From Nitrososphaeria archaeon (lineage in GTDB: Archaea; Thermoproteota; Nitrososphaeria; Geothermarchaeales; JDFR-13): a DNA stretch of 64,000 bases. This document shows positions 1-54,652 of the stretch, in pieces. Both the position numbers and the translations under genes were made by a program. The DNA is taken from NCBI GenBank assembly GCA_027078545.1, contig JALWXN010000004.1:704001-768000 (forward strand). Direction: 5' to 3'. The notes beneath the pieces were generated by a model. That model worked only from the letters and a program-made list of their open reading frames with translations. It was not told where the DNA came from and ran no database searches. Position 1 is the first letter of the stretch. Each line of letters begins with the position of its first letter.

Positions 1-309
1 AGAGTATCAGGAATCTAATTCCCATCCCTCATCCTTTTTACCATCTTTGGATGAGCGGTTAGCCGTAGTTCAATGCTAGAGACGGCCTGTTCAGCAAATA
101 TGACAATATATGGATAGATATCGTCAATACCATGCTTTCCAAATTAGGAGATCGAGGATAAGATTGCTTAGGGGTAAATACATAGATTGGTCTTTTGGGG
201 TAATGTCTCCCATAGTGTTTATAAATAAAACATGCTTATTGATACATCCTAACATGTAGTAACAAGGTGTTAAAACTTATTAGGTCTTAATAGAGATATT
301 ATTTTTGAA

Positions 310-2975: not shown

Positions 2976-3016
2976 GACAAGATGTATATCATGGCGAGTA
3001 GGTATAATAGTGTGGC

Positions 3017-3487: not shown

Positions 3488-3555
3488 TGGGATCCCAATT
3501 GGAGTCACTCCTCATCCCATGAAGGGTCAGAACCCTTTAGCGGTCATCTCCCACT
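3486..3555 (-). ncRNA. C/D-box methylation guide sRNA (16S 958-region guide)
   Basis: Minus strand: box C GAGATGA, guide CCGCTAAAGGGTT, D' CTGA, small hairpin, C' ATGAGGA, guide GTGACTCCAATT, degenerate D GGGA; 7-bp terminal stem AGTGGGA/TCCCACT. TGACTCCAATT is complementary to archaeal 16S AAUUGGAGUCA. Confidence 0.65.
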
Positions 3556-3618
3556 CAAATAGGATTGGCTAGAGAGAAAATTATCCCGTTTTAACCCTGG
3601 AGGGTGGAATGTATTCTT

Positions 3619-3683
3619 GGCGATGATATAGGATCAACCGGCTGACCCCCAAGGGGGATGAAGAGTTTTACCCATGTTGAGCC
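3619..3683 (+). ncRNA. C/D-box methylation guide sRNA (16S 5'-end guide)
   Basis: Box C GCGATGA (3620-3626), guide AGGATCAACCGG (3630-3641) complementary to 16S CCGGUUGAUCCU, D' CTGA (3642-3645), CCCCC-AA-GGGGG hairpin, C' ATGAAGA, guide GTTTTACCCATG, D TTGA (3677-3680); TTTTAA TATA-like box about 30 nt upstream. Confidence 0.75.
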
Positions 3684-3738
3684 TTCAAGCAGATGGGATG
3701 AACCCTTTATTCCCGACCCCGGCTAATCACCTATATAC

Positions 3739-6210
3739 ATGGTCGTAGAGGCCTATCGAAAGGTGGGTAGGGGGTTCACCTTCCCCGGCTATGAAGCGAG
3801 GTTCACCCCTAGGCCCGGCTACCTACTCACACATGCATCGATAGAGGTGTGGATCAAGCCTGTGGAGAAGACCCTTGAGGGCGTGGTGGAGTATAAGATC
3901 TCCTCGGGTGAGAGGGCTAGGAGGATCGAGCTCGACGCCTCGGAGATGGAGATCCTGGAGGTCCTGGTTGATGGGGAGCCGGTAGAGTTTAGATATACCG
4001 GTGAGAAGCTGGTAATACCCTTTACACCCCCTCTTACAAGGAGGATTAGGAGCCTCGTCGTCAGGTATCGGGTTGTGGATCCCAGGTATGGCCTCTACTT
4101 CATAGAGGACCCGCCTATGGTATATACCCAGGGGGAGACGATATGGACTAGCTACTGGCTCCCCACCTATAGGGAGCCTAACATGAGGATCTCCTTCGAC
4201 ATGACTATCCACGCACCAGCCGAGTGGAGGGCCTTCTCAAACGGCGTCCTAGTCTCGGCCGAGAGGGTTGGGGGCGAGTCTATATGGAGATACAGCTTCA
4301 GCTACCCAGTCCCGACCTACCTCATAGCCTTCGCGGCGGGCCGCTTCACCGTTGAGAGGGAGGATTATAGGGGTATCCAGCTCGAGTATATAGTGGCTGA
4401 GGGTGAGGAGGCCAAGATAGAGCCTACCTTCAGGATGACCCGGGACATGATGAGGTTCTTCGAGGAGTGGCTCGGGGTACAGTATCCCTACCCGGTCTAT
4501 AGACAGGTCATGGTTAGGGACTTCGTCGTGGGTGGTATGGAGAACGTATCGATAACTATCCTTAATGACGCCACACTCATGGATGAGCATTCCAAGAAGG
4601 ACTTCAGGGTCGAGGATCTCCTGAGCCATGAGCTTGCCCACCAGTGGTTCGGAGACCTAGTCACGTGTAGGGACTGGAGCCATATATGGATAAACGAGGG
4701 CTTCGCCACCTTCCTCAACCTACTGTATATCAGGCACTGGCTCGGGATGGATGAATACATATATAGCCTCTTAGGAGTCATGGATAGGTACCTCGAGGAG
4801 ACGAGGAGGTATACAAGGCCGACTGTATATAGGGTGTATAGATATCCCGAGGAGCTCTTCGACAGGCACGTCTATGAACGGGGAGCCCTGATCCTAAACA
4901 TGCTGATGAACCTACTGGGGGAGGAGGTCTTCAGGAAGGCTGTTAAGAAGTTCCTCAACCGTTACCGCTTCCAGAACGTGGATACTGAGGATCTCAGGAA
5001 GACTTTTGAGGAGGTCTCCGGCGAGGATCTCGACTGGTTCTTCGAGACATTCGTCTACAACGCGGGGCATATGGAGCTGGAGGTCTCTGTGGAGCCCCTG
5101 GAGGATCAGCAGGCTGTCAGGATAGACATATCACAGAGGCAGGGTGTGGATATGCCGGAGGTCTATAAAGTGCCTATCGAGGTGGAGGTTGTCGGGGATG
5201 GCTGGAGCATAAGGAGGACATACAGGCTTGAGAAGAGGGATGAGCGGATAATAATGCCTGTTAGGAAGGGCTTCAAATATGTACTGGTGGATCCGGACTT
5301 CAAGTTGATGGCTAGGATCAGGCCTAAGTATCCCCTCGACATGCTGGGTGAGATACTCCTCGGCTCCAAGAGCACTTATTGGAGGCTCCTAGCCGCGAGG
5401 GCACTAGGGGAGAAGAAGGGGAAGAGGGTGGTCGACCTACTCGTAGAGGCGATAAGGAGGAGCGGCTTCTATGGTGTAGCCAAGGAGGCGGCGGTATCAC
5501 TCGGCCTCGAAGGCTCGGACTATGCGAAGAAGATGCTTAGGGAGCTGCTTGGGGAGGATCTACACCCCAGGGTGAGGGCCGCCCTAGTAAGATCCCTAGG
5601 AGGCTATAGGGACGAGGGTGATGCCCAGCTATTCATTGACATCCTTAGGGATCCCGGTGAGCCCTACGGGGTCAGGGCGGAGGCTGCCCAGGCCCTCGGC
5701 AAGACAAGGTATAGAGGGGGTATAGATGTGCTTAGATCCATACTTAATGAGTGGAGCTATGCATATGTTGTCCAGAGATATGCACTCAGAGGCCTAGCGG
5801 AGTATGACGATGACGAGGCCTTCCAGGAGATACTTAGGAGATCGAGGCCCGGGAACCCCCTACCGATAAGGGTGGAGGCTATTACACAGCTGGGCAGGTA
5901 TCCGGAGAGGAAGGAGGTCTACAGGGCTCTTGACGAGTATGCCTCGGACAGGCATGAGCGGGTCAGGAGGGCCGTGGTAGCCGCGGCTAGGCAGCTGATG
6001 AATAGGCGGGCATTACCCATTATTGAGAAGATACTTAGGGACGAGGCCAACGGGTTCATAGCCAAGGCATGCCTCCTGGCAAGGAGAGAGGTTGAGGAGG
6101 CCCTGGAGAAGGGTGAGGAGTATAAGAGGCTTATAAAGAAGCTGGAGGAGATCGAGAGCCGCTGGAGAGACATATACAGTAGGATCGAGGTGCTCGACAT
6201 CCATGGATAG
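3739..6210 (+). CDS. M1 family aminopeptidase with C-terminal HEAT repeats
   Basis: GGMEN exopeptidase motif, HELAHQWFG...WINEG (HExxH-x18-E), HEAT-like helical repeats and coiled-coil tail. Confidence 0.93.
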   Translation: MVVEAYRKVGRGFTFPGYEARFTPRPGYLLTHASIEVWIKPVEKTLEGVVEYKISSGERARRIELDASEMEILEVLVDGEPVEFRYTGEKLVIPFTPPLTRRIRSLVVRYRVVDPRYGLYFIEDPPMVYTQGETIWTSYWLPTYREPNMRISFDMTIHAPAEWRAFSNGVLVSAERVGGESIWRYSFSYPVPTYLIAFAAGRFTVEREDYRGIQLEYIVAEGEEAKIEPTFRMTRDMMRFFEEWLGVQYPYPVYRQVMVRDFVVGGMENVSITILNDATLMDEHSKKDFRVEDLLSHELAHQWFGDLVTCRDWSHIWINEGFATFLNLLYIRHWLGMDEYIYSLLGVMDRYLEETRRYTRPTVYRVYRYPEELFDRHVYERGALILNMLMNLLGEEVFRKAVKKFLNRYRFQNVDTEDLRKTFEEVSGEDLDWFFETFVYNAGHMELEVSVEPLEDQQAVRIDISQRQGVDMPEVYKVPIEVEVVGDGWSIRRTYRLEKRDERIIMPVRKGFKYVLVDPDFKLMARIRPKYPLDMLGEILLGSKSTYWRLLAARALGEKKGKRVVDLLVEAIRRSGFYGVAKEAAVSLGLEGSDYAKKMLRELLGEDLHPRVRAALVRSLGGYRDEGDAQLFIDILRDPGEPYGVRAEAAQALGKTRYRGGIDVLRSILNEWSYAYVVQRYALRGLAEYDDDEAFQEILRRSRPGNPLPIRVEAITQLGRYPERKEVYRALDEYASDRHERVRRAVVAAARQLMNRRALPIIEKILRDEANGFIAKACLLARREVEEALEKGEEYKRLIKKLEEIESRWRDIYSRIEVLDIHG

Positions 6211-6230
6211 CATAGAGAAGCGCTATATCG

Positions 6231-6275
6231 CCGATTTCAATACTTAATTATAAGTAGGTCGTATATACGAATCGG
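6231..6275. promoter_or_regulatory. Nested palindromes upstream of the surface-fibre operon
   Basis: TACTTAATTATAAGTA (6241-6256, near-palindrome) and TCGTATATACGA (6259-6270, perfect), flanked by CCGATT/AATCGG. Confidence 0.4.
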
Positions 6276-6309
6276 TATATTGGCCTAATAACATAATTTA
6301 TATTTTTCA

Positions 6310-6870
6310 ATGAGGACGAGTAGAGCCATCATACTTTTGGCGCTGTTGACGCTCTTAGCACTGGTAGGTACTGCGGTCTTCGTCTACCTACCAGTGAACG
6401 TCACCATCAATTCCGTAGGCCCACCAGTGATATTCCAGGCCGGTTCCAACGCTGGTGGAACTGATCTGGGCGGCAACACAATTCAAGTGACACTTGGGCC
6501 AAACTCGTCTAGTGCAACGATAGTTCTCCACCCAACGTATCAGAAGACATATTACCACGATATACTCCAGGTCTCTAACCCATCTCCCCCGGCTGGTGAC
6601 AACTACTACATAGGTATAAAGGTAGTATCACCCCTCACTGGAGCCGCCTTCTCATCAGCCGTTGCTAGGGTCTACGACTCTGCGAACAACCTCTTATTCA
6701 CAGCGGACCTGAAGACAGCTGGTACATATGGCTGGGCCACGCTTCTCCCAGATGGCCAGACATTCAGGATAGATATAGAGATAGTTATTACTGAGGGTGT
6801 CCCACTACCCAGCGGGTCGGTGACGTTCGAGCTAGTCTACAGCCCGCAGAGCGTGACGCCGCCACCGTAG
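6310..6870 (+). CDS. Secreted beta-rich protein, candidate major subunit of a SipW-processed fibre (TasA/bundling-pilin-like)
   Basis: Signal peptide ending VGTA, beta-strand-rich, no TM anchor, N-glycosylation sequons, clustered with a signal peptidase. Confidence 0.6.
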   Translation: MRTSRAIILLALLTLLALVGTAVFVYLPVNVTINSVGPPVIFQAGSNAGGTDLGGNTIQVTLGPNSSSATIVLHPTYQKTYYHDILQVSNPSPPAGDNYYIGIKVVSPLTGAAFSSAVARVYDSANNLLFTADLKTAGTYGWATLLPDGQTFRIDIEIVITEGVPLPSGSVTFELVYSPQSVTPPP

Positions 6871-6875
6871 TAGCG

Positions 6876-8084
6876 ATGCTCTCCAGGATAGTGGCTATAC
6901 CCCTCATACCAATACTTTTTTTCATACCATATGTCCTGGGTGCAGAGTTTAGCTACTATCCTACATCCCTCACCCTTAATTCCGTCTCTCCCCCCATATC
7001 ACTGTATGATCCTGGGGTGTCGGGGGTAACGGTCTCCCTAGGGCCTAACTCGACTAGTGCCTCTATAACTGTTAAGGCTAGCGCACAGCCCTTCGATATA
7101 GTGGCTAATAGCGACTTTATAGGGCCTAGCCCCTGGCTATTCATCCCAGGCACGGACCTGATTAGTGCCACGGTTCTCCCGAGCTACTTAGGTAGGGTGG
7201 GTGTTGCTAATGTCTCTGGATCAGGTTCTCTCTTCACGGGATATACGGACTCGGCGTTCCTCTATCAGCAGATTACTTGGCCGACGACGCCTATCCTATT
7301 CGCCAATGTATATCTCGAGGCCTGTGTAGAGTATGCAGTGACCTCGGGCTTCTCAATACTTCTCCTCGACGCCACCGTATTCGTGGTTGATGCCAATACG
7401 TTGGCCGTGGTAGACTCGATAACCTTCATCCTAGACGTAGGATCATCATCCACCTGTACATGGAACACCTATACTGGTGGCCTGAACGTGGGTGCTTATA
7501 CCCCTGGTGGGACGTACTACTTCCTTATCAGGTATAGGGTGCAGAGCCTCTTTACACTCTTCGGTGGCTCGTACTATGCCAGGTTCTATACCGATCTGGC
7601 GAACATCACGGTTGCACCGGCTAACCCCACCTTCCTAGGTATATTCCTACTTGCCAATGCGTCTACAGGTATTTATAACGCCTCGCTGAGCCTCGTATCA
7701 GCCAGCTTCACCGGCACCGTGGATGCCAATATATGGCTGAGGAACAATACGGTCCAGGTCCAGTCCAGCTCGATCACTATATCGGCCTCCACGATAGTCA
7801 CCAGCCAGACATCAGAGCTCATCGTTACAACGGTTCCACCTGGATATTATAGTCTCGAGATGTGGCTGGACACCACGATCTCGCCTGGTGCCTCGGCCAC
7901 CCTAAACCTGGTCCTCAAGTATAGGATTCAGGACGGTGTTTATGTCGAGTACCCCATCCTGCTCAATATTGTTGACCCTCCCGATAGGGGTGGCCAGCCT
8001 AGTGAACCCCCTGATAAGATCTTCAAGATCTTATCTATTGATCCGCCCCCATATATTGAGTTCTTGAGGAGCTATGATCCGTAG
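6876..8084 (+). CDS. Secreted beta-rich protein, candidate minor or adhesin subunit of the same fibre
   Basis: Signal peptide; mature N-terminus FSYYPTSLTLNSVSPP...VSLGPNSTSASI matches the preceding gene; many N-x-S/T sequons. Confidence 0.6.
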   Translation: MLSRIVAIPLIPILFFIPYVLGAEFSYYPTSLTLNSVSPPISLYDPGVSGVTVSLGPNSTSASITVKASAQPFDIVANSDFIGPSPWLFIPGTDLISATVLPSYLGRVGVANVSGSGSLFTGYTDSAFLYQQITWPTTPILFANVYLEACVEYAVTSGFSILLLDATVFVVDANTLAVVDSITFILDVGSSSTCTWNTYTGGLNVGAYTPGGTYYFLIRYRVQSLFTLFGGSYYARFYTDLANITVAPANPTFLGIFLLANASTGIYNASLSLVSASFTGTVDANIWLRNNTVQVQSSSITISASTIVTSQTSELIVTTVPPGYYSLEMWLDTTISPGASATLNLVLKYRIQDGVYVEYPILLNIVDPPDRGGQPSEPPDKIFKILSIDPPPYIEFLRSYDP

Positions 8085-8487
8085 GCCGGGGCCCACGACA
8101 CTTATCGTACTAGTATTCGCCATACTGGTTCTCGGACGCTTCGTGGGTAGCCCGGTTGCAGCTGTGGTGATTGTTGGGCCCTCTATGGAGCCTACCCTGA
8201 ACGTGGGTGACCTGGTCATTCTCCGCTGGGCCGATCCGGAGGTTGGGGATATAGTCCTCTGGTGTAACACCCTGATGAACTGTGTTCTACACCGTGTTGT
8301 TGAGGTGGGCAAGGACTATATAGTTACGAGGGGAGACGCCAACGACATCAATGACCCTCCCGTCCTGAGGGAGCAGGTTAGATATGAGGCCCTACTATCG
8401 ATACCCAGGTATCTATGGATACCCGGCCTAGCCATACTGGTTATAGGTGCACATCTATATGAGAAGAGGAAGGAGGGGGGCGATTAA
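8074..8487 (+). CDS. Signal peptidase I, archaeal/SipW (Ser-His) type
   Basis: GPSMEPTLNVGDLVI, VLHRVV and TRGDAN..D motifs; N- and C-terminal TMs. Confidence 0.9.
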   Translation: MIRRPGPTTLIVLVFAILVLGRFVGSPVAAVVIVGPSMEPTLNVGDLVILRWADPEVGDIVLWCNTLMNCVLHRVVEVGKDYIVTRGDANDINDPPVLREQVRYEALLSIPRYLWIPGLAILVIGAHLYEKRKEGGD

Positions 8488-9226
8488 GGGGCTCGTAGCT
8501 GGCGGCCTAGGCCTATGGCTCTACAGCTTTTACGAGCCAGTCCTAAGGATAGAGTTAGTGAGGCATAGGATTGACCTTGACCTGGGGCTGGAGATCCTCT
8601 TCGTGACTGACACCCATCTCCACGGTGTCCCGGGTAGGGAGGATAGCGTCATAAAGCTTGTTGAGGATCTCTCTAGGGAGGTAGACCTCACGATACTGGG
8701 GGGAGACATGTATGACGAGTTCTCGGAGAGCCTGGAGAGCTTCTCATCCCTCCTAGATGCGATAAGTGGCGAGGCTATCATGGTTCTCGGTAACCATGAA
8801 CACTGGGCTGCCGATAGGTATCCCCTCGAAGAGACTATAGAGATGGCTGAGTCGAGAGGCGTGACTGTGCTTAGGAACGGGGTGGTGGAGTATAAAGGTC
8901 TCCATATCGGAGGGGTAGACTGGTATGGTGATAACCCGCAGCTGGCGAGGAGGTACTACAGGGACGTTGGGAGTGTAGATATCCTGGTATCCCACACACC
9001 CGACATACTTGGTGATGCGGAGGTCGATGCACGCCTCGTATTGGCTGGCCATACGCATGGTGGCCAGATACTGGGTCCACTTGGGCTGATAACGAATAGT
9101 AGGCATGGCTATGTAAGCGGCTTCTATAGGAGGGGTGAGGCCCTGATGTATGTCTCTAGGGGGGCTGGGGAGATTATTCCCTTCCGCCTATTGACGCCCC
9201 GGGAGGTCACATTACTAAGCGTCTAG
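8447..9226 (+). CDS. Metallophosphoesterase (YkuE-like)
   Basis: DTH, GGD..D, GNHE, SHTPD, GHTHGGQ and VSRG motifs. Confidence 0.9.
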   Translation: MHIYMRRGRRGAIKGLVAGGLGLWLYSFYEPVLRIELVRHRIDLDLGLEILFVTDTHLHGVPGREDSVIKLVEDLSREVDLTILGGDMYDEFSESLESFSSLLDAISGEAIMVLGNHEHWAADRYPLEETIEMAESRGVTVLRNGVVEYKGLHIGGVDWYGDNPQLARRYYRDVGSVDILVSHTPDILGDAEVDARLVLAGHTHGGQILGPLGLITNSRHGYVSGFYRRGEALMYVSRGAGEIIPFRLLTPREVTLLSV

Positions 9227-10218
9227 CCAGACATCCTTATCAATATCTTCCCGTCACGCTCCCTGCTGAATAGGCTGTTTAGCGCCTCACCAGCCTGGTC
9301 TAGGCTATATATCCTCCATATCCTAGGCTTTACCACACCCCTCTCTAAATCCCTAAGCACATCCTTGAACTCTTGGATGGTTCCCCCGGTCACCCCTATT
9401 AGGCTGGTCTCTCTACGGTAGATCGGGGCTACCCCGCCTGGAATGTCCATCGAGGTTAGGCCGCCGAATGTCATTACATATCCATGTCTCTTGACGATGA
9501 TTAGCGACTCTGCCAATAATTTTCCGCCCAATGGGTTGATGATGAGGTCTGGCTCTCCCCACTCATCTATAAGCTGCTTAACATCCCCGGGAGGGACTAC
9601 CCTGGAGGCCCCGAGCCCTGAGACCCAGTCCTTCCTCGTTACGGCTGCGACGTCTATCCCTGCTTTTGCTAGGTACTGGACTATATACATCCCGACGTTG
9701 CCCGATGCCCCATATACCAGGGCCTTCTCAATACATAGCTCCAAAGCCCTATTCACCGCATGCTTGGCCGTTAGGGCTGATACACCGGCCGTGGCCTGTA
9801 TCTCAGGCTCTCCACCAGCCTCATAAACGTTCTTCTCCGGTAGCTTGACATACTCCGCGTATGTCCCATCCACTACACCACCTACGATACCGCCCCGTAG
9901 GCAGAGGTTCTCATGCCCCTCCCTACACTCCTCACACTCTCCACAGTGTATCCAGGGATAGATACTGACCTGCATCCCCTTCTTGAGGCGGTTTACACCA
10001 TCGCCCACATCGACGACTATCCCTGAGGCCTCGCTCCCCACGATCCTTTTAGGCGGGTCCAATGGGTATCTACCACTGGCTATCCAGTAGTCTATAGGAT
10101 TCACACCTGTATAGAGAATCTTCACCAGGACCTCTCCCGGGCCAGGCTCCGGCGTCCCTACCTCCCCAACCACTAGTCTGGGCGGGTCAACCTTCCCACT
10201 ATATGTTGCTGCCCTCAT
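9223..10218 (-). CDS. Zinc-containing medium-chain dehydrogenase/reductase
   Basis: GVNPID, GSEASG, structural Zn CGECEEC...C, GASGNVG Rossmann motif. Confidence 0.9.
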   Translation of the reverse strand: MRAATYSGKVDPPRLVVGEVGTPEPGPGEVLVKILYTGVNPIDYWIASGRYPLDPPKRIVGSEASGIVVDVGDGVNRLKKGMQVSIYPWIHCGECEECREGHENLCLRGGIVGGVVDGTYAEYVKLPEKNVYEAGGEPEIQATAGVSALTAKHAVNRALELCIEKALVYGASGNVGMYIVQYLAKAGIDVAAVTRKDWVSGLGASRVVPPGDVKQLIDEWGEPDLIINPLGGKLLAESLIIVKRHGYVMTFGGLTSMDIPGGVAPIYRRETSLIGVTGGTIQEFKDVLRDLERGVVKPRIWRIYSLDQAGEALNSLFSRERDGKILIRMSG

Positions 10219-10287
10219 CCCATATCCACATCATTATCTATAGCCTCCGACCGATTATGTATCATCTACATTGCCTGGTGGTGGGGC

Positions 10288-11028
10288 TTGAGGATACGCG
10301 GCGTATCTATAGACCTATGGTTCACACTCGTGTATGACGATGCTGAGAGGTATAGGCTGTTCCAGAGGTCTAGGATAGACTATATCTATGGAGTCCTGAA
10401 GATGTATCGTGACGATGTGGCGAGGGAGGACTTAGAAGGCCTATTCGAGGAGTTCAAGACCTTCATGATGGAGGTTCATCCCTATAGGCTGATGCAGATG
10501 GTCGCCGCGGCTCTTGGAGTCGACTCCGAGGCTGTGGACGAGATGTATAGCAGGTATATAGACGCCGCCTGGAATGCGAGGCCCTATGTAAACAGAGACG
10601 CCCTCAAATTCCTCGAGTGGTGTGAGGAGCGTGGCCTACCAGTAGTTATAACAACGAACACGACCTACTCTAGGGAGATGATAGAGCGGATGTTCAGCAA
10701 CATCGGGCTGGAGAAGTATTCCGAGAACGTGGTCTCGTCGGCGGAGGTGGGTGCTGCCAAGCCTAAGCCCGAGATCTTCAGGGCAGCGGTCGATAAGCTT
10801 GGACTTAATCCCAAGGAGGTTCTACACGTGGGGGACAAGTATGTCCATGACGCGTTAGGGGCGTATCTAGCAGGGCTTAGGCCTGCCCTCTACAGGGGGC
10901 TCTGGGACAGGTATGGACGGTTCATGGGCTTTGGTGAGGAGTTCGAGGTCAGGAGTTATCCACCGTATATCTGGGTCGTGGATAGCTTCGAGGAGCTTAT
11001 CGAGAGGCTGGAGAGGATAACAGGCTAG
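10288..11028 (+). CDS. HAD-superfamily hydrolase
   Basis: DLWFTL, TTN, KPKPEIF, HVGD...D. Confidence 0.88.
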   Translation: MRIRGVSIDLWFTLVYDDAERYRLFQRSRIDYIYGVLKMYRDDVAREDLEGLFEEFKTFMMEVHPYRLMQMVAAALGVDSEAVDEMYSRYIDAAWNARPYVNRDALKFLEWCEERGLPVVITTNTTYSREMIERMFSNIGLEKYSENVVSSAEVGAAKPKPEIFRAAVDKLGLNPKEVLHVGDKYVHDALGAYLAGLRPALYRGLWDRYGRFMGFGEEFEVRSYPPYIWVVDSFEELIERLERITG

Positions 11029-11111
11029 CCTAATACCCCTATTTAAATCGGCGTGGGGGCAATACAATACTTGACACTTATTTGAACACCCCATTGGATG
11101 AGGTGTCGCCG

Positions 11112-12254
11112 GTGGCCGATGTCGGTATAATAGGGGTTGGGACGACCCAGTTCCGTCCCGAGACCCGTGAGAAGCTGTTCAAGGAGCTTATGTACGAGGC
11201 TGCCTACCGAGCCTATCTCGAGGCGGGTGTCGATCCTAGGCGTGACATAGATGCCTTCATAACGGCCTCTGAAGACCTCTGGGAGGGCCTGGCAATATTC
11301 GATGAGTATGTCCCAGACCAGCTGGGCGGAGTATTGAAACCGGTCTTCACTGTGGGTGGGGACGGTATACATGGGCTTATCCATGGATACATGCTCATAA
11401 AGACAGGTAGGTTCGACGTCGTGGCCGTGGAGGCGCATAGTAAGGCCAGCGAGATAGAGAATATCAAGAAGGTGGTTAGGTTCGCCCTCGACCCGATATA
11501 TCTACGCCCAGTCATCGAGGATGTCGACGTCCTAGCGGGGCTGGAGATGGCTGCCTCCCTAGGCTGCTACGGCATAGACATGGATACTGTGAACGAGGTG
11601 ATACTGAAGAACCACTTCAACGGATCCTTCAACTCGGCTCCCTATGCCCAGAACCTCGACGAGAACAGCTTCGAGACCCCTGAATACCTTGCCGAGCCGC
11701 TGAGGGCACTGGACGTGGCTCAATACGTCGATGGAGGAGTGGTCATCGTCCTAGCCTCCAAGGAGTACATCTCGAGGGAGGGATTGGAGCCCGTATGGAT
11801 AGAGGGTGTAGGCTGGGCTACACAGGGTGGACGCTTCGAACGCTTCCTAGACATGCCCGGCGAGGGCTTGGCTGCAGCTGCTAGGATGGCCTACGACATG
11901 GCTGGCGTCTCGAGGCCTAGGAGGTATTTCGACCTGGCAGAGGTGGACGACAGGTTCAGCTTTAGGGAGCCTGTATCACTGATAGCCCTCGGCCTAGCCA
12001 GTGGAGACGTCAACCTGGACTATGCGGACAGGATTTTCGATATGGATGGGGAGCTCCCAGTGAACGTCTCCGGCGGGTTCCTCGCAAATGGGTATCCACT
12101 AGAGGCGGGAGGCCTTATGAAGCTTGTCTACGCAGCTAGGCAGATATGGGGCGAGGCCGGGCCCAACCAGCTCGACGATGTGGAGAAGGCGTTGGTGGCG
12201 ACTAGGAGGGAGATACCCTCAACCACATATGGGGTAGTAGTCCTATCGGGGTGA
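11112..12254 (+). CDS. Thiolase-fold protein (SCP2/Ltp2-like, lacks catalytic Cys), subunit 1
   Basis: IIGVGTT, DGGVVIVL, AEVDDRF, VNVSGGFLANGYP; GTG start at 11112 after GAGGTG. Confidence 0.85.
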   Translation: MADVGIIGVGTTQFRPETREKLFKELMYEAAYRAYLEAGVDPRRDIDAFITASEDLWEGLAIFDEYVPDQLGGVLKPVFTVGGDGIHGLIHGYMLIKTGRFDVVAVEAHSKASEIENIKKVVRFALDPIYLRPVIEDVDVLAGLEMAASLGCYGIDMDTVNEVILKNHFNGSFNSAPYAQNLDENSFETPEYLAEPLRALDVAQYVDGGVVIVLASKEYISREGLEPVWIEGVGWATQGGRFERFLDMPGEGLAAAARMAYDMAGVSRPRRYFDLAEVDDRFSFREPVSLIALGLASGDVNLDYADRIFDMDGELPVNVSGGFLANGYPLEAGGLMKLVYAARQIWGEAGPNQLDDVEKALVATRREIPSTTYGVVVLSG

Positions 12255-13438
12255 TCAATATGAAGATGAATATCTATAGGAAGAACCGTGTCGCGTGTGT
12301 TGGGGCCGGGCTAACCCTCTTCAGGCGTAGGCTGATGGAGACGAGCGACGAGCTCATGTGGCTAGCCGCTAGACAGGCGCTCGACGAGGCAGGCCTAACC
12401 ATAGAGGATATAGACTGCATAATATTCGGGACAGCCCCGGACAACTTCGACGGCATCCATATGCAGAGCGAGGCCCTTGCTGATGGGGCAGGAGCCGTGA
12501 ATAAGCCCTATACAAGGGTCTATGTAGGTGGTGGTACAGGGGTCTTCAGCGTTATAGCCGGGTGGTGGCACGTGGCCTCTGGACTGTGTGACAGGGTGCT
12601 CGTCATAGCGGAGGAGAAGATGAGCCATGTACAGCCCCATCCCCAGTACCTCTTCCACCACATCTTCGACCCCGTGACTGAGAAGCCCCTGGGCGTCAAC
12701 CTGATATGGATCTTCGCCCTGGAGATGCATCGATACATGTATAAATACGGCATCAAGAAGGAGGACATCGCCCTCGTCTCGGTGAAGAATAAGAGGAACG
12801 CGTTGGACCATCCATCCGCCCAGGTGGCTGCGAAGATAACTGTGGAGGACGTCCTCAACAGCGAGGTACTGGTATGGCCCGTCCAGAGGCTCGACATCTC
12901 ACCCGTCTCAGACGGTGCTGGGGCCCTCGTGCTTGTCAGTGAGTCGGAGGCTAAGAAGCTTACCGACGAGCCTATATGGATCGACGGCGTAGGGTGGAGC
13001 CTCGACACGATGTACTGGACAAATAGGGACCTGGCATTCCCCGTCTACCTATACTACGCAGGTAAGATGGCCTATGAGATGGCGGGGATCGAGAACCCGA
13101 GGAAGGAGATAGACTTCGCAGAGGTCTACGACCCCTTCGACTATAAGGAGCTCCACCACATGGAGGGTCTACAGCTTGCTAGGAAGGGTGAGGCGCCTAT
13201 ACTAACTAGGGAGGGAGTCACCGAGCGGGATGGAGACCTCCCGATAAACCCGAGCGGAGGCCTACTAGGCGTGGGGAACCCGATCGCTGCAGCCGGGATA
13301 ATGAAGGTGGCCGAGGTCTACTGGCAGCTGAGAGGAATGGCGGGTAAGAGGCAGGTCAAGAAGGATGTGGTCACCGGCCTGGCCCAGGCCTGGGGAGACC
13401 TTATGCAGGTGGGCACAGTCGTGGTTATGAGGAGGTGA
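12251..13438 (+). CDS. Thiolase-fold protein (SCP2/Ltp2-like, lacks catalytic Cys), subunit 2
   Basis: SPVSDGAGA, AEVYDPF, INPSGGLLGVGNP. Confidence 0.88.
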   Translation: MINMKMNIYRKNRVACVGAGLTLFRRRLMETSDELMWLAARQALDEAGLTIEDIDCIIFGTAPDNFDGIHMQSEALADGAGAVNKPYTRVYVGGGTGVFSVIAGWWHVASGLCDRVLVIAEEKMSHVQPHPQYLFHHIFDPVTEKPLGVNLIWIFALEMHRYMYKYGIKKEDIALVSVKNKRNALDHPSAQVAAKITVEDVLNSEVLVWPVQRLDISPVSDGAGALVLVSESEAKKLTDEPIWIDGVGWSLDTMYWTNRDLAFPVYLYYAGKMAYEMAGIENPRKEIDFAEVYDPFDYKELHHMEGLQLARKGEAPILTREGVTERDGDLPINPSGGLLGVGNPIAAAGIMKVAEVYWQLRGMAGKRQVKKDVVTGLAQAWGDLMQVGTVVVMRR

Positions 13439-14411: not shown

Positions 14412-14514
14412 ACACCAGTCGTAAATACTCTTATCCTAAGTAATTAGGGGGATTGATTAAATCTGCCCTGATTGATATGAGATTGTGGATAACTAAGACC
14501 GGAGGTGAAGCGAT

Positions 14515-15111
14515 ATGGATCAGAAGGTTATTGCCGGTGTAGCGATCGTCATACTCATAGCTGCCATCGCGGGATACTTCATGATGAGTAGCCCCGCCGG
14601 TGAAACAGGCGGGGGTGAGGCTGGTGAGGAGACATACATAGTTATCGGCTACTACTGGGGCTTCAAGATATACGACTCCAACTACAACCCTGTGGACAAG
14701 ATCATGGTTAAGAAGGGAACGACCCTAAAGATAATATTCCTCAACGCCAGATCCTTCGCCGAGGACTTCTATGGCCCACTGGAGGAGGAGAGTAAGCAGA
14801 AAGGCGTAGGTGGCCTCGACAACGGGCCATTGGAGCAGAAGATCATGGAGGCTTTGGAGACTAACTTGGTTGACCATGGCCTACAGATAATTGGATATGG
14901 CGTGAGTGTAGCTACGAACTATAAGGCTTTCAGCGGAACTGCCAAGACACTCCAGGAGTTCTTCCAGAACGAGCCTCAGGACGCTATTAACCAGCACACA
15001 GTAGTCTTCAAGGCCGATAAGACGGGTGTATTCGACTTCGTCTGCTACGTCGTCTGTGGCTATGGCCACTCCTTCATGAGCCTAAAGGGCGCTCTCCAGG
15101 TGTACGAGTAG
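14515..15111 (+). CDS. Membrane-anchored cupredoxin with a complete CuA motif (COX2-like, stand-alone)
   Basis: N-terminal TM, DHGL, and CYVVCGYGHSFM (C-x3-C-x3-H-x2-M). Confidence 0.8.
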   Translation: MDQKVIAGVAIVILIAAIAGYFMMSSPAGETGGGEAGEETYIVIGYYWGFKIYDSNYNPVDKIMVKKGTTLKIIFLNARSFAEDFYGPLEEESKQKGVGGLDNGPLEQKIMEALETNLVDHGLQIIGYGVSVATNYKAFSGTAKTLQEFFQNEPQDAINQHTVVFKADKTGVFDFVCYVVCGYGHSFMSLKGALQVYE

Positions 15112-17167: not shown

Positions 17168-18025
17168 CTGAGTAATAGGAGGCTACTAGTCCTACTCCTA
17201 ATCCCCATCCTAATCATGCCTGGGGTCTCGGCCGAGACCTACAGCTTCATGGATGGCTCGGGAGTAGACTACTTGGCGGATAACCTGGGAGAGTTTAGCG
17301 ACTTGATGGATAAGGTTGATGTTATACGTGGCTCATTCACACTGGAGGGTAACAGCTTCAGCATAGAGGTAGAGATGGCTGATAAGCCCCTAGTGGGGGC
17401 CGAGGCGAGCAGCTATGCAAGCAACGCCTCAGGCCTACTGATGCGCATACTGATGATGTTCAGGATGGATGGACCCGGCGGCGAGGCTGTTGACCTAAGC
17501 GTCAGAACCCTATATACCTATAGCGAGGCACCCAGTGGGGATGGCTACGTGTTCACAACCTTCTACTGGGAGCTGCTGGTTGACTACTATAGGGTCGACG
17601 AGGGTTATGGCAACTACAGCGTCATGGGCAATACGATGATCTTCGCTGGCGAGGCTACAAACACATCTATACTAGACGGCTCGACACCGAACCTGCTGAA
17701 CGTCACAGCCCTATTCAACTGGCAGGGTATCTACCTAGCTGTGGACTATGCAGGGGAGGGATGGGAAGCTCCCGACACCGCGCCTGTAGACACACCCGTC
17801 GTGGATCCCGACACGACGCCGGGAGTAGTCGATGATACAGACCAGGGAGTACCTAGTGATACTGATGATGCTGTGGAAGATAGTCAGGAGAAAGGTGGAG
17901 AGGAGAAAACTGGTGTGGAGACGGGTGATACGGGTATGTGGATACTCATCGGACTAGTGGCGGTTGGAATTGTAGGTGCCGGTGTAGCGCTTTACATCCT
18001 GAGGAGTGGTGGGCTATCCAAGTAG
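17168..18025 (+). CDS. Hypothetical surface protein with signal peptide, P/T/D linker and C-terminal TM
   Basis: Frame open from CTG 17168 (LSNRRLLVLLLIPILIMPGVSA signal peptide); the ORF track starts at ATG 17216. Confidence 0.65.
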   Translation: MSNRRLLVLLLIPILIMPGVSAETYSFMDGSGVDYLADNLGEFSDLMDKVDVIRGSFTLEGNSFSIEVEMADKPLVGAEASSYASNASGLLMRILMMFRMDGPGGEAVDLSVRTLYTYSEAPSGDGYVFTTFYWELLVDYYRVDEGYGNYSVMGNTMIFAGEATNTSILDGSTPNLLNVTALFNWQGIYLAVDYAGEGWEAPDTAPVDTPVVDPDTTPGVVDDTDQGVPSDTDDAVEDSQEKGGEEKTGVETGDTGMWILIGLVAVGIVGAGVALYILRSGGLSK

Positions 18026-18674: not shown

Positions 18675-18769
18675 CCTGGGCATGGTTTAGAAAACATATA
18701 CTCCAAAGGTCTTAGGGATATACCATATATACAGATAGGGAGGAAGTATATACATGCGGGGGGTTCGAG

Positions 18770-19330
18770 ATGGAGGTCCAATGGGCCGTCGAGATGTTCT
18801 ACTACAGCCTCATAACGACCTACACCATAGTCATCCTACTATTCATCTACAAGACCCGTAAACCCCCCAAGATATCGACCGACGGCGGAGTCCACCAGGG
18901 GATGGATAGGCGGGAGAAGATATGGATGTACAGCCTGATAACAGTGGCAATAATAGGCAACATAATCTTCTTTAGTCCACTCATACCATCGATGCAGTAC
19001 AACATCTACCTTGACGAGGAGCCTGTGAAGACAATCGTGATAAGGATGGAGGACCATAGATTCATCCTGCCTGAGGAGCCTATAGTCATACCCCTGGGCG
19101 AGCCTGTGGAGTTCAAGGTGTATAGCGAGGATCTTACCTATGGCTTCGGGGTCTTCAGGGAGGATGGTATGCTAGTCTTCCAGATGCAGGTCGTGCCCGG
19201 CTATGAGAATAGGCTGGTCTGGATATTCACCGAGCCTGGCAACTACACGATCAGGAGTACTGAGTACAGTGGGCCGGAGCATCCCTACATGTATATCGAG
19301 GACGCGATAGTCGTGGAGGAGGTGGGTTAG
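18770..19330 (+). CDS. Heme-copper oxidase subunit II lacking CuA ligands (gNOR-like)
   Basis: Two TMs, DLTYGF (H to Y), QVVPGY, RSTEYSGPEHPYM (both Cys to Ser). Confidence 0.85.
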   Translation: MEVQWAVEMFYYSLITTYTIVILLFIYKTRKPPKISTDGGVHQGMDRREKIWMYSLITVAIIGNIIFFSPLIPSMQYNIYLDEEPVKTIVIRMEDHRFILPEEPIVIPLGEPVEFKVYSEDLTYGFGVFREDGMLVFQMQVVPGYENRLVWIFTEPGNYTIRSTEYSGPEHPYMYIEDAIVVEEVG

Positions 19331-19331
19331 C

Positions 19332-20864
19332 ATGGGGCCTAGGGAGAAGCTAGCCCTTAAATACGTCTTGGCAGGGGTCTTCTGGCTAGGCGTCGCAGGT
19401 ATAGAGGGCATATTAATGAGGCTCAGGATACTTAACCTCCTCACCGAGATCTATACACCTGAGCATTACTACGCCATGATGACTGTCCACCCCTTTGTAG
19501 GCATATATGGCTGGGCCTACATGGCCGTCATGGGTGCCTTCTACTACCTAGTCCCGGTCGTGCTTAAGAAGGATCTCTATAGTGAGTGGGTCGCCAACCT
19601 GGCCTGGTATGTGATGATGGCCGGTGTATTGATAACCTGGCTCTCAGGCTTCCTATTCAGCTATAGCCCCCTATACACGCTCTACTGGCCCCTACCAGTC
19701 GTTGAGTATAACGGTATCCAGCAGATAGTCTTCGGCTTCGGCAGCGCACTCATCTTCATCTCCGTACTCATGTTCTTCTTCAACATGTTCGCCACGATCT
19801 TCCTCCCCCAGAGGGGCGCGGGTGGAGCTGGCTACGTGGCTAAGGAGCTCCTCACACTCGCCTTCAACCTTGATAAGCTGAAGGCTAAGACGAAGGGTAT
19901 TAAGGAGTATCTACCAAGGGTGAATAACTACCCAGTCTTCGTAGTGGGCGTCTTCAGGGGCTGTGTAGACACCACTCTTAACGCTATTGTCCTACTACTA
20001 GTATCCCTCACGATAGGTGTCTATGGGATAACGGAGGTTCTGGGCAACGAGCTGAGCCCCAGCCTTATAGACCCGCTTATCTATAAGAACGTCTTCTGGT
20101 GGGGCCTCGACCTCATAGCGGATGGCAACGTCCTCATCTTCACAGCGGCAACCTGGTACTTCCTGGTCCCACTACTTACTAACCAGCCACTATTCGGGGA
20201 GAACGTGGTTAGGAGCGTGATCCTGGCCGACCTCGTGATAAGCCTCTTCGTCTGGAACCACCACATGATGAGTGATACTCCACAGCCACTATTCCTACTC
20301 GTCCAGGGCCAGATATTCACATGGGGTGAGTTGATAACCATGGGGCTAACCATGTTCGCCGTGCTGATGACGATCTGGAGGGCTAGGCCGGTAGAGTATA
20401 GCCCAGCCCTACTGGCGATAGTCCTCTCGATCCTCGGCTACGCCATGGGTGGCTCGGCAGGTATGATACAGGCCAACATAGCTATGAACAGGTATTTCCA
20501 CAATACCCAGTGGGTCATAGGTATACATGGCCATATCCAGCTACTGGCTGGTCTTAGCCTAACGATCTTCGCGGCGATCTACGCACTAGCCCCGATCCTC
20601 ACTGGTAAGGAGATGGATAGGAGGCTGTCATACCTACACATTGTCCTCTTCTTCGTGGGGGCTGTGGTGATGGGTCTGAGTCAGGGAGCGGCTGGGGCCG
20701 CTGGTATGCTTAGGAGGACGCTGTACTTCAACGGTGAGTACGCTGGATACATGACTGTTGCCGCCATCGGGTCCTTCCTAATGGCGGTAGGCTTCCTAAT
20801 ATTCCTATACAACTTCGTCAAGACCTACGGCTTCAAGAGTGTGATAGAGGTTCTAAAGCCATAG
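19332..20864 (+). CDS. Heme-copper oxidase superfamily subunit I, divergent active site (putative NO reductase, gNOR-like)
   Basis: About 12 TMs; MTVHP heme His; WWGLDLIAD in place of WxxGHPxVY; VWNHHM; FHNTQWVIGIHGH; GMLRR. Confidence 0.85.
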   Translation: MGPREKLALKYVLAGVFWLGVAGIEGILMRLRILNLLTEIYTPEHYYAMMTVHPFVGIYGWAYMAVMGAFYYLVPVVLKKDLYSEWVANLAWYVMMAGVLITWLSGFLFSYSPLYTLYWPLPVVEYNGIQQIVFGFGSALIFISVLMFFFNMFATIFLPQRGAGGAGYVAKELLTLAFNLDKLKAKTKGIKEYLPRVNNYPVFVVGVFRGCVDTTLNAIVLLLVSLTIGVYGITEVLGNELSPSLIDPLIYKNVFWWGLDLIADGNVLIFTAATWYFLVPLLTNQPLFGENVVRSVILADLVISLFVWNHHMMSDTPQPLFLLVQGQIFTWGELITMGLTMFAVLMTIWRARPVEYSPALLAIVLSILGYAMGGSAGMIQANIAMNRYFHNTQWVIGIHGHIQLLAGLSLTIFAAIYALAPILTGKEMDRRLSYLHIVLFFVGAVVMGLSQGAAGAAGMLRRTLYFNGEYAGYMTVAAIGSFLMAVGFLIFLYNFVKTYGFKSVIEVLKP

Positions 20865-20955: not shown

Positions 20956-21555
20956 GTGATGAGTATATCCGAGGTCTCGATAGATATTGCTAGGAGCAGG
21001 TGTAGGCTCTACAGGAAGTATGGGAGCCGTATAAAGATCCTGTCGATCACGAATAATGGGGAGCGTATCATCCACCTCGTCACATGTCCAAAGGACCTGG
21101 TGGGTAATATCAGGGATGAGGAGGATCTCAAGGTACTGGGTCTAAACCTCGTCGATAACGAGGCGAGTGTATGGTGCCTATCCAGGGGCTGCGATGTATG
21201 TAAGCCGCTTGTGGATGAGGGCTGTATAATCCTGGATGGCTATATAGGGCAGGACGGCTCGATGAACATAACCTTCCTATCCCCCAGCGACAAGACTACT
21301 GAGAAGATCTTCAGGATCTATAGGGAGCTGGGTATCGAGTATGAGGTGAGGTATACGAGGAGGTATGGGAAGAGTAGGATACTGACCGATAGGCAGGAGC
21401 AGGTCCTATACCTGGCGTATAAAATGGGGTTCTTCGACTTCCCCAGGAAGACCTCGCTGAAGGAGCTGAGTGAGATACTGGGTATTAAGGAGGCGACCCT
21501 CAGCGAGATCCTGAGGAGGGGTGTGAAGAAGGTTATCCAGGAATACTTCAAATAG
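20956..21555 (+). CDS. HTH_10 (bacterio-opsin activator-type) transcription regulator
   Basis: LTDRQEQVLYLAYKMGFFDFPRKTSLKELSEILGI...LSEILRRG. Confidence 0.9.
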   Translation: MMSISEVSIDIARSRCRLYRKYGSRIKILSITNNGERIIHLVTCPKDLVGNIRDEEDLKVLGLNLVDNEASVWCLSRGCDVCKPLVDEGCIILDGYIGQDGSMNITFLSPSDKTTEKIFRIYRELGIEYEVRYTRRYGKSRILTDRQEQVLYLAYKMGFFDFPRKTSLKELSEILGIKEATLSEILRRGVKKVIQEYFK

Positions 21556-21653: not shown

Positions 21654-22211
21654 ATGAGCCGGGGAGATGGGCTTAGGTATGGACTCCTAGCCAGCATAGC
21701 AGCCTTCATAATTATCGAGTACCTCTTGATACAGGTCTTCCTATACGGTGTCTACACCCCCTATGCCTGGCCAAACATAATACTCATCTCGAGCCTCATA
21801 CCCATAGGGCTTGTAGCCTATATAGGCTATCTATCCTGGCTGGTTGAGGGTAGGGATGTGTTTAAATACGCCAGTGCACTGGCCCTCCTGCTTGGCTCGG
21901 CCTCCATCGCCACTGGCTATATGGGGGAGCCGGTATCCCTATACCTCCTCTTCACCGCATACTTCACCGAGGTTGTCGTCGGGCCCTTCCTCATGAGGGG
22001 GTTCGAGACCTATGACTGGCTAGGTGCCAGGCTCTTCCTGGTCGGTATCATGGGCTTCGTCCTCAGCCTCCCACTGGTCTCACTGGCGAACGAGTTTGCC
22101 CTTGTACCCTTCGCCGCCAACCTGTTGAAGGGATATGGACTCATAAGGATCTATCTAAAGGCTGTTGAGAAGCCTATACCTGTTGAGGAGGCGGTCGAGG
22201 CGGTTGCCTAG
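21654..22211 (+). CDS. Hypothetical multi-TM membrane protein
   Basis: About six hydrophobic segments, host-like codon usage. Confidence 0.6.
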   Translation: MSRGDGLRYGLLASIAAFIIIEYLLIQVFLYGVYTPYAWPNIILISSLIPIGLVAYIGYLSWLVEGRDVFKYASALALLLGSASIATGYMGEPVSLYLLFTAYFTEVVVGPFLMRGFETYDWLGARLFLVGIMGFVLSLPLVSLANEFALVPFAANLLKGYGLIRIYLKAVEKPIPVEEAVEAVA

Positions 22212-54548: not shown

Positions 54549-54652
54549 AGACATTTGTCTAAAAACCTAAATTTTCTTTACCATTAAACTTTTGTTTTTT
54601 CTGAAAATATATATTCCTCAAAATAAGGGTTCAAAACACGGGATTTAGCGAA

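What the first reader, a model, noticed from the sequence alone, without database searches (positions are those of the whole stretch)
18770..20864. Heme-copper oxidase with Asp replacing the helix-VI His and Tyr (gNOR-like) in an archaeon
Seen: subunit I keeps the heme His residues (MTVHP, IHGH) and the HH pair (WNHH), but WxxGHPxVY reads WWGLDLIAD. Subunit II has STEYSGPEHPYM and DLTYGF, so all CuA Cys ligands and one His are lost. Known: O2 reductases need the three-His CuB site and the His-Tyr cross-link; an Asp-substituted site matches my recollection of the poorly characterised gNOR family of putative NO reductases. Inference: this is not a canonical cytochrome c oxidase but an NO reductase or an enzyme of unknown chemistry, with no nir/nos genes in the window.
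Basis: partly seen in the sequence, partly recalled or inferred. Interest (0 to 1): 0.8.

Follow-up and report, generated by a model that had tools for sequence, protein, structure and literature searches.

The report
gNOR-type nitric oxide reductase operon
These two genes in an uncultured hot-vent archaeon encode one more member of gNOR, a published but never purified branch of the respiratory oxidase superfamily that probably turns nitric oxide into nitrous oxide, and here they are tied by genome context to a nitrous-oxide reductase.

Summary
ORFs 18770-19330 and 19332-20864 (+) form a subunit II / subunit I heme-copper pair. The three heme His and the HH pair are kept. Asp260 and Asp264 sit where the CuB His and the cross-link Tyr belong. 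Subunit II has Tyr/Ser/Ser in place of the CuA His/Cys/Cys.

These are not decay: the motifs are invariant in 116 homologs (46-97% identity) and occur in at least 586 species genomes. The family is one sharply separated clade. It includes proteins of Sulfurimonas, Sulfurovum, Persephonella and Methylomirabilota, the groups in which gNOR was named. So this is a new member of a known but biochemically untested family, already reported in Archaea.

The host is a Geothermarchaeota-type genome (1.24 Mb, 92% complete). It also has an A-family oxidase and a clade II nosZ cluster 40 kb upstream, and no nirK, nirS or narG was found.

A palindrome lies upstream of nosZ, of a stand-alone CuA cupredoxin and (one mismatch) of this operon. 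In a sister genus the gNOR and nos operons are adjacent.

NO reduction to N2O is the best reading, but it is inferred. This scan had already reached the same verdict on at least five other genomes, and had noted this same stretch before.

The parts
18703..18716 (.). Operator-like palindrome CCAAA-N4-TTAGG, one mismatch from CCTAA-N4-TTAGG, 67 nt upstream of the subunit II ATG
   Evidence: Genome-wide there are only 2 exact copies (upstream of nosZ and of the CuA cupredoxin) and 30 one-mismatch copies in 1.24 Mb. Related palindromes lie upstream of the gNOR operon in L005, L006, L015, and an exact copy in G008.
18770..19330 (+). gNOR subunit II: two N-terminal TM helices plus a cupredoxin domain without CuA (Y124, S163, S167; H171 and M174 kept)
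   Evidence: Pfam COX2 25 bits. It lies directly upstream of subunit I in 76 of 81 loci. In 74 homologs, Tyr at the His position and Ser at both Cys positions are each found in 73 of 74.
19332..20864 (+). gNOR subunit I: 12-helix heme-copper fold with heme ligands H53, H399, H401. The non-heme metal site is formed by D260, H310 and H311, with D264 at the Tyr position.
   Evidence: Pfam COX1 221 bits. Motif invariance. Alignment to canonical His/Tyr. AF2 model pLDDT 87.5, TM about 0.8 to A-family subunit I and 0.70 to ba3. DD clade with SH-aLRT 100.
20956..21555 (+). HTH_10 (bacterio-opsin-activator/NarO-like) regulator with conserved C ... CxxC; candidate reader of the palindrome
   Evidence: Pfam HTH_10 71.5 bits. 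A homolog is adjacent to gNOR in 10 other, archaeal, loci (11 counting this window). Cys conservation was seen in the alignment. Two such regulators sit between gNOR and nos in G008. Binding is inferred.
14435..14448 (.). Exact palindrome CCTAAGTAATTAGG, 80 nt upstream of the stand-alone CuA cupredoxin gene
14515..15111 (+). Stand-alone membrane-anchored CuA-type cupredoxin (H121 ... C176-x3-C-x3-H-x2-M); candidate electron carrier for NosZ and/or gNOR
   Evidence: Motif read from the translation. Weak CoxB match over the CuA loop. A CuA-type counterpart sits next to nosZ in G008 (E 9e-9). The role is inferred.
21654..22211 (+). 185-aa polytopic membrane protein of no known family, downstream of the regulator; whether it belongs is uncertain
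   Evidence: No Pfam or NCBIfam hit. A homolog was found only in the 98%-identical relative L005.

Best explanation
The operon encodes a gNOR-type heme-copper-superfamily enzyme.

Shown: subunit I keeps the low-spin and high-spin heme ligands. Its second metal site is built from Asp260, His310 and His311, with Asp264 where O2 reductases have the cross-linked Tyr. Subunit II is a membrane-anchored cupredoxin that cannot bind CuA.

Inferred: the 2-His/carboxylate site binds non-heme iron (FeB) rather than copper. The heme/FeB centre reduces 2 NO + 2 e- + 2 H+ to N2O + H2O. Electrons enter directly from membrane quinol, as in bo3 and qNOR, or from the co-regulated stand-alone CuA cupredoxin. The N2O is then consumed by the organism's clade II NosZ.

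Because no nitrite or nitrate reductase was found, the NO probably comes from outside the cell (neighbouring organisms or abiotic chemistry) or from an unrecognised enzyme. Expression is probably controlled by the adjacent Cys-bearing HTH_10 regulator through the CC(T/A)AA-N4-TTAGG site shared with nosZ.
For: Membership: D260 and D264 align with the CuB His and the Tyr. The motifs are invariant in 116 homologs. The family scores fall from 373 bits (43% identity) to 108 bits (27%) for the next full-length relative. The DD clade has SH-aLRT 100. The same motif at 40-42% identity occurs in Sulfurimonas, Sulfurovum and Persephonella. A 57%-identical Methylomirabilota homolog exists. The published definition matches (PMC11214002, PMC8756737, PMC6094997).

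Function by context:
- nosZ (TIGR04246, 769 bits against a cut-off of 625) plus nosL lie 40 kb upstream.
- The exact palindrome occurs only upstream of nosZ and the CuA protein, and a one-mismatch copy sits at -67 of gNOR against -66 for nosZ.
- In G008, gNOR, two HTH_10 regulators and a nos operon (NosZ, NosL and NosD by Pfam; ABC ATPase and ABC-2 permease genes in the NosF/NosY positions) form one 10-kb cluster with a CuA cupredoxin.
- Among 31 related genomes, gNOR and nosZ occur together in 6, gNOR alone in 2, nosZ alone in 1, and neither in 22.
- In other loci, mostly bacterial (some Bathyarchaeia and Methanomethylicia), gNOR sits beside hemerythrin proteins that match the RIC/YtfE/DnrN models only weakly and below cut-off (23 loci), Crp/Fnr regulators (13 loci) and heme o synthase (10 loci).

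A canonical A-family O2 reductase is present elsewhere in the genome.
Against: No gNOR has ever been purified or assayed, so NO reduction rests on active-site logic and context only. No nirK, nirS or narG was found in this genome (92% complete) or in the 13 sampled genomes of the same family, so there is no internal NO source. The gNOR copy of the palindrome has a mismatch, and 30 such one-mismatch sites exist in the genome. Related genomes are not independent, so the co-occurrence counts overstate support. The identity of the metal, the geometry of the site and the electron donor are untested; coordinates of the AF2 model were not available to measure distances. Candidate quinol-site residues are only partly conserved (E25 in 112 of 116, R30 in 109 of 116, H45 in 87 of 116). 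The tree did not resolve whether the family descends from the B-family, as published.
Confidence: 0.7

Rival explanations
1. It is a gNOR-family enzyme, but its physiological chemistry is not respiratory NO reduction to N2O. Candidates are NO detoxification only, NO dismutation, or reduction of another small oxidant favoured in sulfidic hot fluids.
For: No member has been assayed. The genome lacks nir and nar genes. Ca. Methylomirabilis carries gNOR but has no nosZ, and the role there is called unclear (PMC6094997). Hemerythrin proteins weakly similar to RIC/YtfE (below cut-off) beside gNOR, mostly in bacterial loci, fit stress protection as well as respiration. The heme/2-His/2-Asp site has no characterised precedent in the superfamily.
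Against: Tight linkage and co-distribution with nosZ in this archaeal family points to N2O as the product, and the operator is shared with nosZ. A synthetic mimic of the gNOR site is reported to reduce NO (cited in PMC11214002).
Confidence: 0.2
2. It is an O2 reductase: a B-family-like oxidase variant that uses another residue in place of the His-Tyr cofactor.
For: It has the overall oxidase fold and heme ligands. Nine Tyr are conserved in the family. PGAP names relatives 'cbb3-type cytochrome c oxidase subunit I'.
Against: The His that forms the cross-link is replaced by Asp in all 116 members, and no Tyr lies in helix VII before the HH pair, where C-family enzymes have theirs. The family is a separate clade from the ba3-type and A-family rows. 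The genome already has an intact A-family oxidase with CuA. The PGAP name only reflects a generic model hit far below cut-off.
Confidence: 0.05
3. It is a degenerate, non-catalytic relic of an oxidase.
For: It has lost the canonical CuB His, the Tyr and the CuA ligands.
Against: The replacing residues are invariant across 46-97% identity and at least 586 species genomes in both domains. The frames are intact and the operon structure is conserved in 76 of 81 loci. The AF2 model is confident.
Confidence: 0.02

Closest known systems
gNOR family of the heme-copper oxidoreductase superfamily (Sievert et al. 2008; Hemp & Gennis 2008; Murali et al. 2024, PMC11214002)
   Same: Asp for the helix VI metal-binding His, Asp at the Tyr position, a CuA-less cupredoxin subunit II, and the two-gene II-I operon. 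It shares 40-42% identity and an identical FWWGLDLIAD motif with Sulfurimonas, Sulfurovum and Persephonella proteins, and 57% identity with a Methylomirabilota protein.
   Different: Nothing at the level of the enzyme. The context is specific to this lineage: a Geothermarchaeota host, an HTH_10 regulator instead of Crp/Fnr, no adjacent hemerythrin or heme o synthase, linkage to clade II nosZ, and no nir genes. The FIND preprint (10.1101/592808) mentions a His-to-Glu heme-ligand change in gNOR; this is not seen here, where all three heme His are conserved.
sNOR / bNOR (B-family-derived NO reductases; bNOR of Bacillus azotoformans has been characterised)
   Same: Derived from the oxidase side of the superfamily, with a cupredoxin subunit II and loss of the cross-link Tyr.
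   Different: They keep all three metal-binding His, have Asn at the Tyr position, and bNOR keeps CuA. In the tree, rows with the His/Asn signature form other clades.
cNOR / qNOR
   Same: The presumed reaction (2 NO to N2O), a heme plus non-heme metal centre with a carboxylate ligand, and (for qNOR) quinol as donor without CuA.
   Different: They belong to the C-family-related lineage, have a three-His-plus-Glu FeB site, and carry a cytochrome c subunit or a fused N-terminal domain. No cNOR or qNOR chain appeared among the PDB sequence matches.
ba3-type B-family cytochrome c oxidase (Thermus thermophilus, PDB 1XME)
   Same: The 12-13 helix subunit I fold, the FWW start of the helix VI motif, and a two-TM cupredoxin subunit II.
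   Different: It has His233-Tyr237, three-His CuB and CuA, and it reduces O2. It scores only about 50-63 bits and TM 0.70 against this protein.
Escherichia coli cytochrome bo3 (CyoAB)
   Same: Subunit II retains the cupredoxin fold without CuA, and electrons come from quinol bound in subunit I helices I-II. Here E25, R30 and H45 lie in comparable places.
   Different: bo3 is an A-family O2 reductase with an intact His-Tyr/CuB site. The equivalence of the quinol sites is inferred from spacing only.

Membership tests
gNOR | Heme-copper subunit I fold with the three heme-ligating His | tested here: met
   COX1 221 bits. H53 and H401 are invariant in 116 homologs and H399 is His in 115 of 116. The AF2 model has pLDDT 87.5 and TM about 0.8 to solved subunit I chains.
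gNOR | Aspartate in place of one active-site (helix VI) metal-binding His | tested here: met
   D260 aligns with the GH(P) His of 35 or more canonical sequences, including a ba3-type protein and the genome's own A-family oxidase. It is invariant. One pairwise phmmer alignment shifted the register by one residue; the multiple alignment and the shared FWW register argue against that shift.
gNOR | Asp at the position of the cross-link Tyr, and no migrated Tyr | tested here: met
   D264 aligns with the Tyr. No Tyr occurs at residues 300-309 before the HH pair. Without the helix VI His, no cross-link partner exists.
gNOR | Cupredoxin subunit II lacking the CuA ligands | tested here: met
   Y124, S163 and S167 replace His, Cys and Cys, each in 73 of 74 family members.
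gNOR | Groups with the proteins of the organisms in which gNOR was named (Sulfurimonas, Sulfurovum, Persephonella, Ca. Methylomirabilis) | tested here: met
   40-42% identity over the full length, E about 1e-130, with the identical motif, to named Sulfurimonas, Sulfurovum, Persephonella and Nitrosophilus proteins. 57% identity to a Methylomirabilota MAG protein. The DD clade has SH-aLRT 100. The exact locus tags (Damo_1118-1119) could not be fetched.
gNOR | Match to the authors' curated gNOR HMM and placement in their reference tree | not testable with these tools
   The HMMs (github ranjani-m/HCO) and the paper's supplementary alignments are not held.
gNOR | Conserved residues able to bind quinol | tested here: inconclusive
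   E25 (112 of 116), R30 (109 of 116) and H45 (87 of 116) lie in helices I-II. H45 is 8 residues before the heme His, as recalled for bo3 His98 relative to His106.
gNOR | NO reductase activity | not testable with these tools
   It has never been shown for any family member (PMC11214002).
B-family O2 reductase | Three-His CuB site, His-Tyr cross-link and CuA in subunit II | tested here: not met
cNOR / qNOR | Three-His plus Glu FeB site, a cytochrome c subunit or fused N-terminal domain, and C-family affinity | tested here: not met
   Only two His remain at the site. The partner subunit is a cupredoxin. There was no sequence match to cNOR or qNOR structures, and only partial matches (N-terminal third of the profile, 42-45 bits) to cbb3.

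The most novel reading that the evidence does not exclude
In this Geothermarchaeota family, four components form a self-contained, Nir-less NO -> N2O -> N2 respiratory module: gNOR, clade II NosZ, a stand-alone membrane-anchored CuA cupredoxin and a Cys-bearing NarO-like HTH_10 regulator. The module would run on exogenous or abiotically formed NO in hot crustal fluids. gNOR would use a 2-His/2-carboxylate non-heme iron site and receive electrons in trans from the CuA protein rather than, or as well as, from quinol.
Probability: 0.3. Interest if true: 0.6.

Novelty: new member of a known kind. Interest (0 to 1): 0.35.

Why it matters
gNOR is widespread: at least 586 species genomes here, against 156 GTDB genomes and 913 metagenome hits in the 2024 survey. 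It is still biochemically untested, so every N2O budget that counts it as a nitric oxide reductase rests on inference.

This instance adds no new enzyme type. It does add unusually clean context for the NO-reductase assignment: gNOR is physically fused to a nos cluster in a sister genus, shares an operator with nosZ, and co-occurs with nosZ in genomes that have no nitrite reductase.

It also offers a small genome (1.24 Mb) in which the electron-entry question (quinol versus a trans-acting CuA protein) and the regulator-operator pair can be tested directly.

Tried and rejected
- The supplements of PMC11214002 are not held, and Sievert et al. 2008 could not be read. The family definition was therefore taken from the main texts of PMC11214002, PMC8756737 and PMC6094997.
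- A literature search for Damo_1118/1119 gave nothing further.
- A pairwise phmmer alignment to the aa3-600 oxidase placed L259 on the His. I rejected this in favour of the multiple alignment with closer relatives.
- NCBIfam and PGAP names ('cbb3-type', CtaD) are generic hits far below cut-off and do not classify the protein.
- The tree did not resolve the published B-family ancestry. The A-family, ba3-type and DD clades meet in open forks, and the nearest rows (P0168 and P0172) are long branches.
- AF2 coordinates are not exposed, so distances among Asp260, Asp264, His310, His311 and His399 could not be measured.
- The weak Cu-oxidase_3 hit in the genome is a 200-aa blue-copper protein, not NirK.
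- P0004, P0005 (MarC) and P0006 are shared only with the 98%-identical relative and are not conserved parts of the system.
- The His-to-Glu heme-ligand change mentioned in preprint 10.1101/592808 is not present.
Full report
**What is there.**
Two co-directional ORFs one base apart, 18770-19330 (P0001, 186 aa) and 19332-20864 (P0002, 510 aa), match Pfam COX2 (25 bits) and COX1 (221 bits).
- MTVHP at 50-54, WWGLDLIAD at 256-264, WNHH at 308-311 and IHGH at 398-401 in subunit I.
- DLTYGF at 121-126 and STEYSGPEHPYM at 163-174 in subunit II.

NCBIfam models for A-, C- and SoxB-type oxidases match only far below their cut-offs.

**Are the substitutions real and at the right positions?**
I aligned the protein with nine family members, 56 full-length representatives of its nearest non-family relatives and the genome's own A-family oxidase.
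- The alignment places D260 on the metal-binding His and D264 on the cross-link Tyr of the W-x-x-G-H-P-x-V-Y motif.
- One outgroup row, P0249, is a genuine ba3-type B-family protein (406 bits to PDB 1XME).
- One pairwise phmmer alignment to an A-family chain shifted the register by one residue. The shared FWW start of the motif and the multiple alignment argue against that shift.
- In 116 homologs of 46-97% identity, positions 253 and 256-260, A263, D264, G265 and V267 are invariant. So are H53, H310, H311 and H401; H399 is His in 115 of 116.
- In 74 subunit II homologs, Tyr replaces the first CuA His and Ser replaces each Cys in 73 of 74. The second His and the Met persist.
- No Tyr lies ahead of the HH pair where C-family oxidases carry their migrated Tyr.
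- An AlphaFold2 model from the family alignment is confident (pLDDT 87.5, pTM 0.89). It matches solved subunit I chains at TM about 0.8, and ba3 at 0.70.

**Which family.**
The literature defines gNOR by exactly these traits.
- An Asp replaces an active-site His that is otherwise universal in the superfamily, and the tyrosine is missing.
- The cupredoxin subunit lacks the CuA residues, and there are putative quinol-binding residues (PMC11214002).
- The 'active-site residue' at the Tyr position is D, with Sulfurimonas, Sulfurovum and Persephonella as type hosts (PMC8756737, Table A4).
- Ca. Methylomirabilis oxyfera carries one as Damo_1118-1119 (PMC6094997).

My results fit this definition.
- The window's protein has homologs in Thermoprotei, Nitrososphaerota/Aigarchaeota, Bathyarchaeia, Methanomethylicia, many Anaerolineae, Methylomirabilota (57%) and Terriglobales.
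- The Campylobacterales member L084 has 71-77% identical relatives named Sulfurimonas, Sulfurovum, Persephonella and Nitrosophilus.
- Five named ones align with P0002 over the full length at 40-42% identity and carry FWWGLDLIAD.
- In an exhaustive search of 1.84 billion representatives, scores fall from 373 bits (43% identity) to 108 bits (27%) for the next full-length protein.
- In a quick IQ-TREE (LG+C20) of 68 rows, all 24 Asp/Asp rows form one clade with SH-aLRT 100 on a stem of 0.95.
- That tree does not resolve whether the clade stems from the B-family as published.

Membership in gNOR is therefore well supported. The curated HMMs of the authors could not be run.

**Host and genome context.**
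- The window is C4:704001-768000 of a 1.24-Mb, 92% complete genome.
- The closest public locus is a Candidatus Geothermarchaeota MAG at 98% identity.
- The genome has a second heme-copper enzyme, an A-family subunit I+III fusion with a CuA subunit II.
- It has a clade II nosZ (TIGR04246, 769 bits against a cut-off of 625) followed by nosL, starting at C4:681222, about 40 kb upstream of gNOR.
- No nirS, nirK or narG was found. The only extra copper hit is a 200-aa blue-copper protein.

**Links between gNOR and nosZ.**
- The palindrome CCTAA-N4-TTAGG occurs exactly twice in the whole genome. One copy is 66 nt upstream of nosZ. The other is 80 nt upstream of ORF 14515-15111.
- A one-mismatch copy, CCAAA-N4-TTAGG, lies 67 nt upstream of the gNOR subunit II start. 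Thirty one-mismatch sites exist genome-wide, so this copy alone is only moderately significant.
- Related palindromes also sit upstream of the gNOR operon in L005, L006 and L015.
- An exact copy sits upstream of the gNOR operon in genome G008, a different genus.
- ORF 14515-15111 is a membrane-anchored cupredoxin with a full CuA-type ligand pattern, H ... C-x3-C-x3-H-x2-M.
- In G008 the gNOR operon, two HTH_10 regulators, a nos operon (nosZ, nosL, an unassigned ORF, nosD and ABC ATPase and permease genes in the nosF/nosY positions) and a CuA-type cupredoxin lie in one cluster of about 10 kb.
- Among the genome and 30 relatives, gNOR and nosZ are confined to one family. They occur together in 6 genomes, gNOR alone in 2 and nosZ alone in 1 (those three are 74-75% complete), and neither in 22.
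- None of the 14 genomes of that family showed nirK or nirS. Related genomes are not independent, so these counts are suggestive only.

**Wider neighbourhoods.**
- In 81 loci (80 related loci plus this window), subunit II precedes subunit I in 76.
- Recurrent neighbours, mostly in bacterial loci, are hemerythrin-domain proteins with weak, sub-cut-off similarity to RIC/YtfE/DnrN (23 loci), Crp/Fnr regulators (13), heme o synthase (10) and DUF166 (7).
- Ten other loci, all archaeal, instead carry a homolog of the HTH_10 regulator P0003, as this window does, with a conserved C ... CxxC pattern.
- These partners fit an NO-responsive, heme-o/b-containing enzyme, but they do not prove it.

**How it most likely works.**
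- Shown: the ligand set and the absence of CuA.
- Inferred: a heme plus non-heme iron centre, with iron held by Asp260, His310 and His311 and with Asp264 as a fourth ligand or proton relay. This centre reduces NO to N2O. Electrons come from quinol (candidate residues E25, R30, H45) or from the co-regulated CuA cupredoxin. NosZ takes the N2O to N2.
- With no nitrite reductase found, NO would come from outside the cell.
- Rival readings are other NO chemistry or detoxification (about 0.2), an unusual O2 reductase (about 0.05) and a relic (about 0.02).

**Novelty.**
The family was named in 2008, surveyed in 2024 and explicitly reported in Archaea, so this is a new member of a known kind. This scan had already reached the same verdict for gNOR operons in at least five other genomes, and had noted this same stretch twice. 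What remains open, and what makes the family worth an experiment, is that no gNOR has been purified.

Noticed in passing
window 14435-15111: A stand-alone, membrane-anchored cupredoxin with a complete CuA-type ligand pattern, behind one of only two exact CCTAA-N4-TTAGG palindromes in the genome. A counterpart lies next to nosZ in G008 (L086:12604-13116).
   Followed up: partly
L086 (G008:C1:193000-211000) 2632-13116: A compact N-oxide island in a sister genus: palindrome, gNOR subunits II and I, two HTH_10 regulators, a nos operon (NosZ, NosL, NosD by Pfam; ABC ATPase and ABC-2 permease genes; one unassigned ORF) and a CuA cupredoxin. The nosZ promoter there carries a different palindrome, CCGAA-N4-TTCGG.
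   Followed up: partly
tree (P0057, P0086, P0070, P0077 against P0039, P0041, P0060): Bacterial gNORs named Terriglobales (P0057) and Methylomirabilota (P0086), together with two unnamed rows (P0070, P0077), nest inside a clade of Nitrososphaerota/Aigarchaeota archaeal sequences. This suggests transfer between the domains.
   Followed up: no
P0168 and P0172: Two long-branch relatives share the WWGL / TxHP context of gNOR but have His/Asn (P0168) or Arg/Gln (P0172) at the two key positions. They may be undescribed or poorly sampled heme-copper variants next to gNOR.
   Followed up: no
window 18770-19330 (subunit II loop, residues 162-174): The CuA-less loop R-S-T-E-Y-S-G-P-x-H-x-x-M is almost invariant in 74 homologs. 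That is far more conserved than expected for a vestigial site, so it may have a new structural or metal-binding role.
   Followed up: no
window 17216-18025: A 269-aa acidic protein with a C-terminal membrane anchor and no family match. A homolog was seen only in the 98%-identical relative.
   Followed up: no
window 1-2000 and 54001-56000: Two stretches of low G+C (0.44 and 0.41, against about 0.54 for the rest of the window).
   Followed up: no
G001, G005, G007 gNOR matches: Three relatives' gNOR matches are reported with one in-frame stop (TAG or TAA). I did not check whether these are match-edge effects or broken genes.
   Followed up: no
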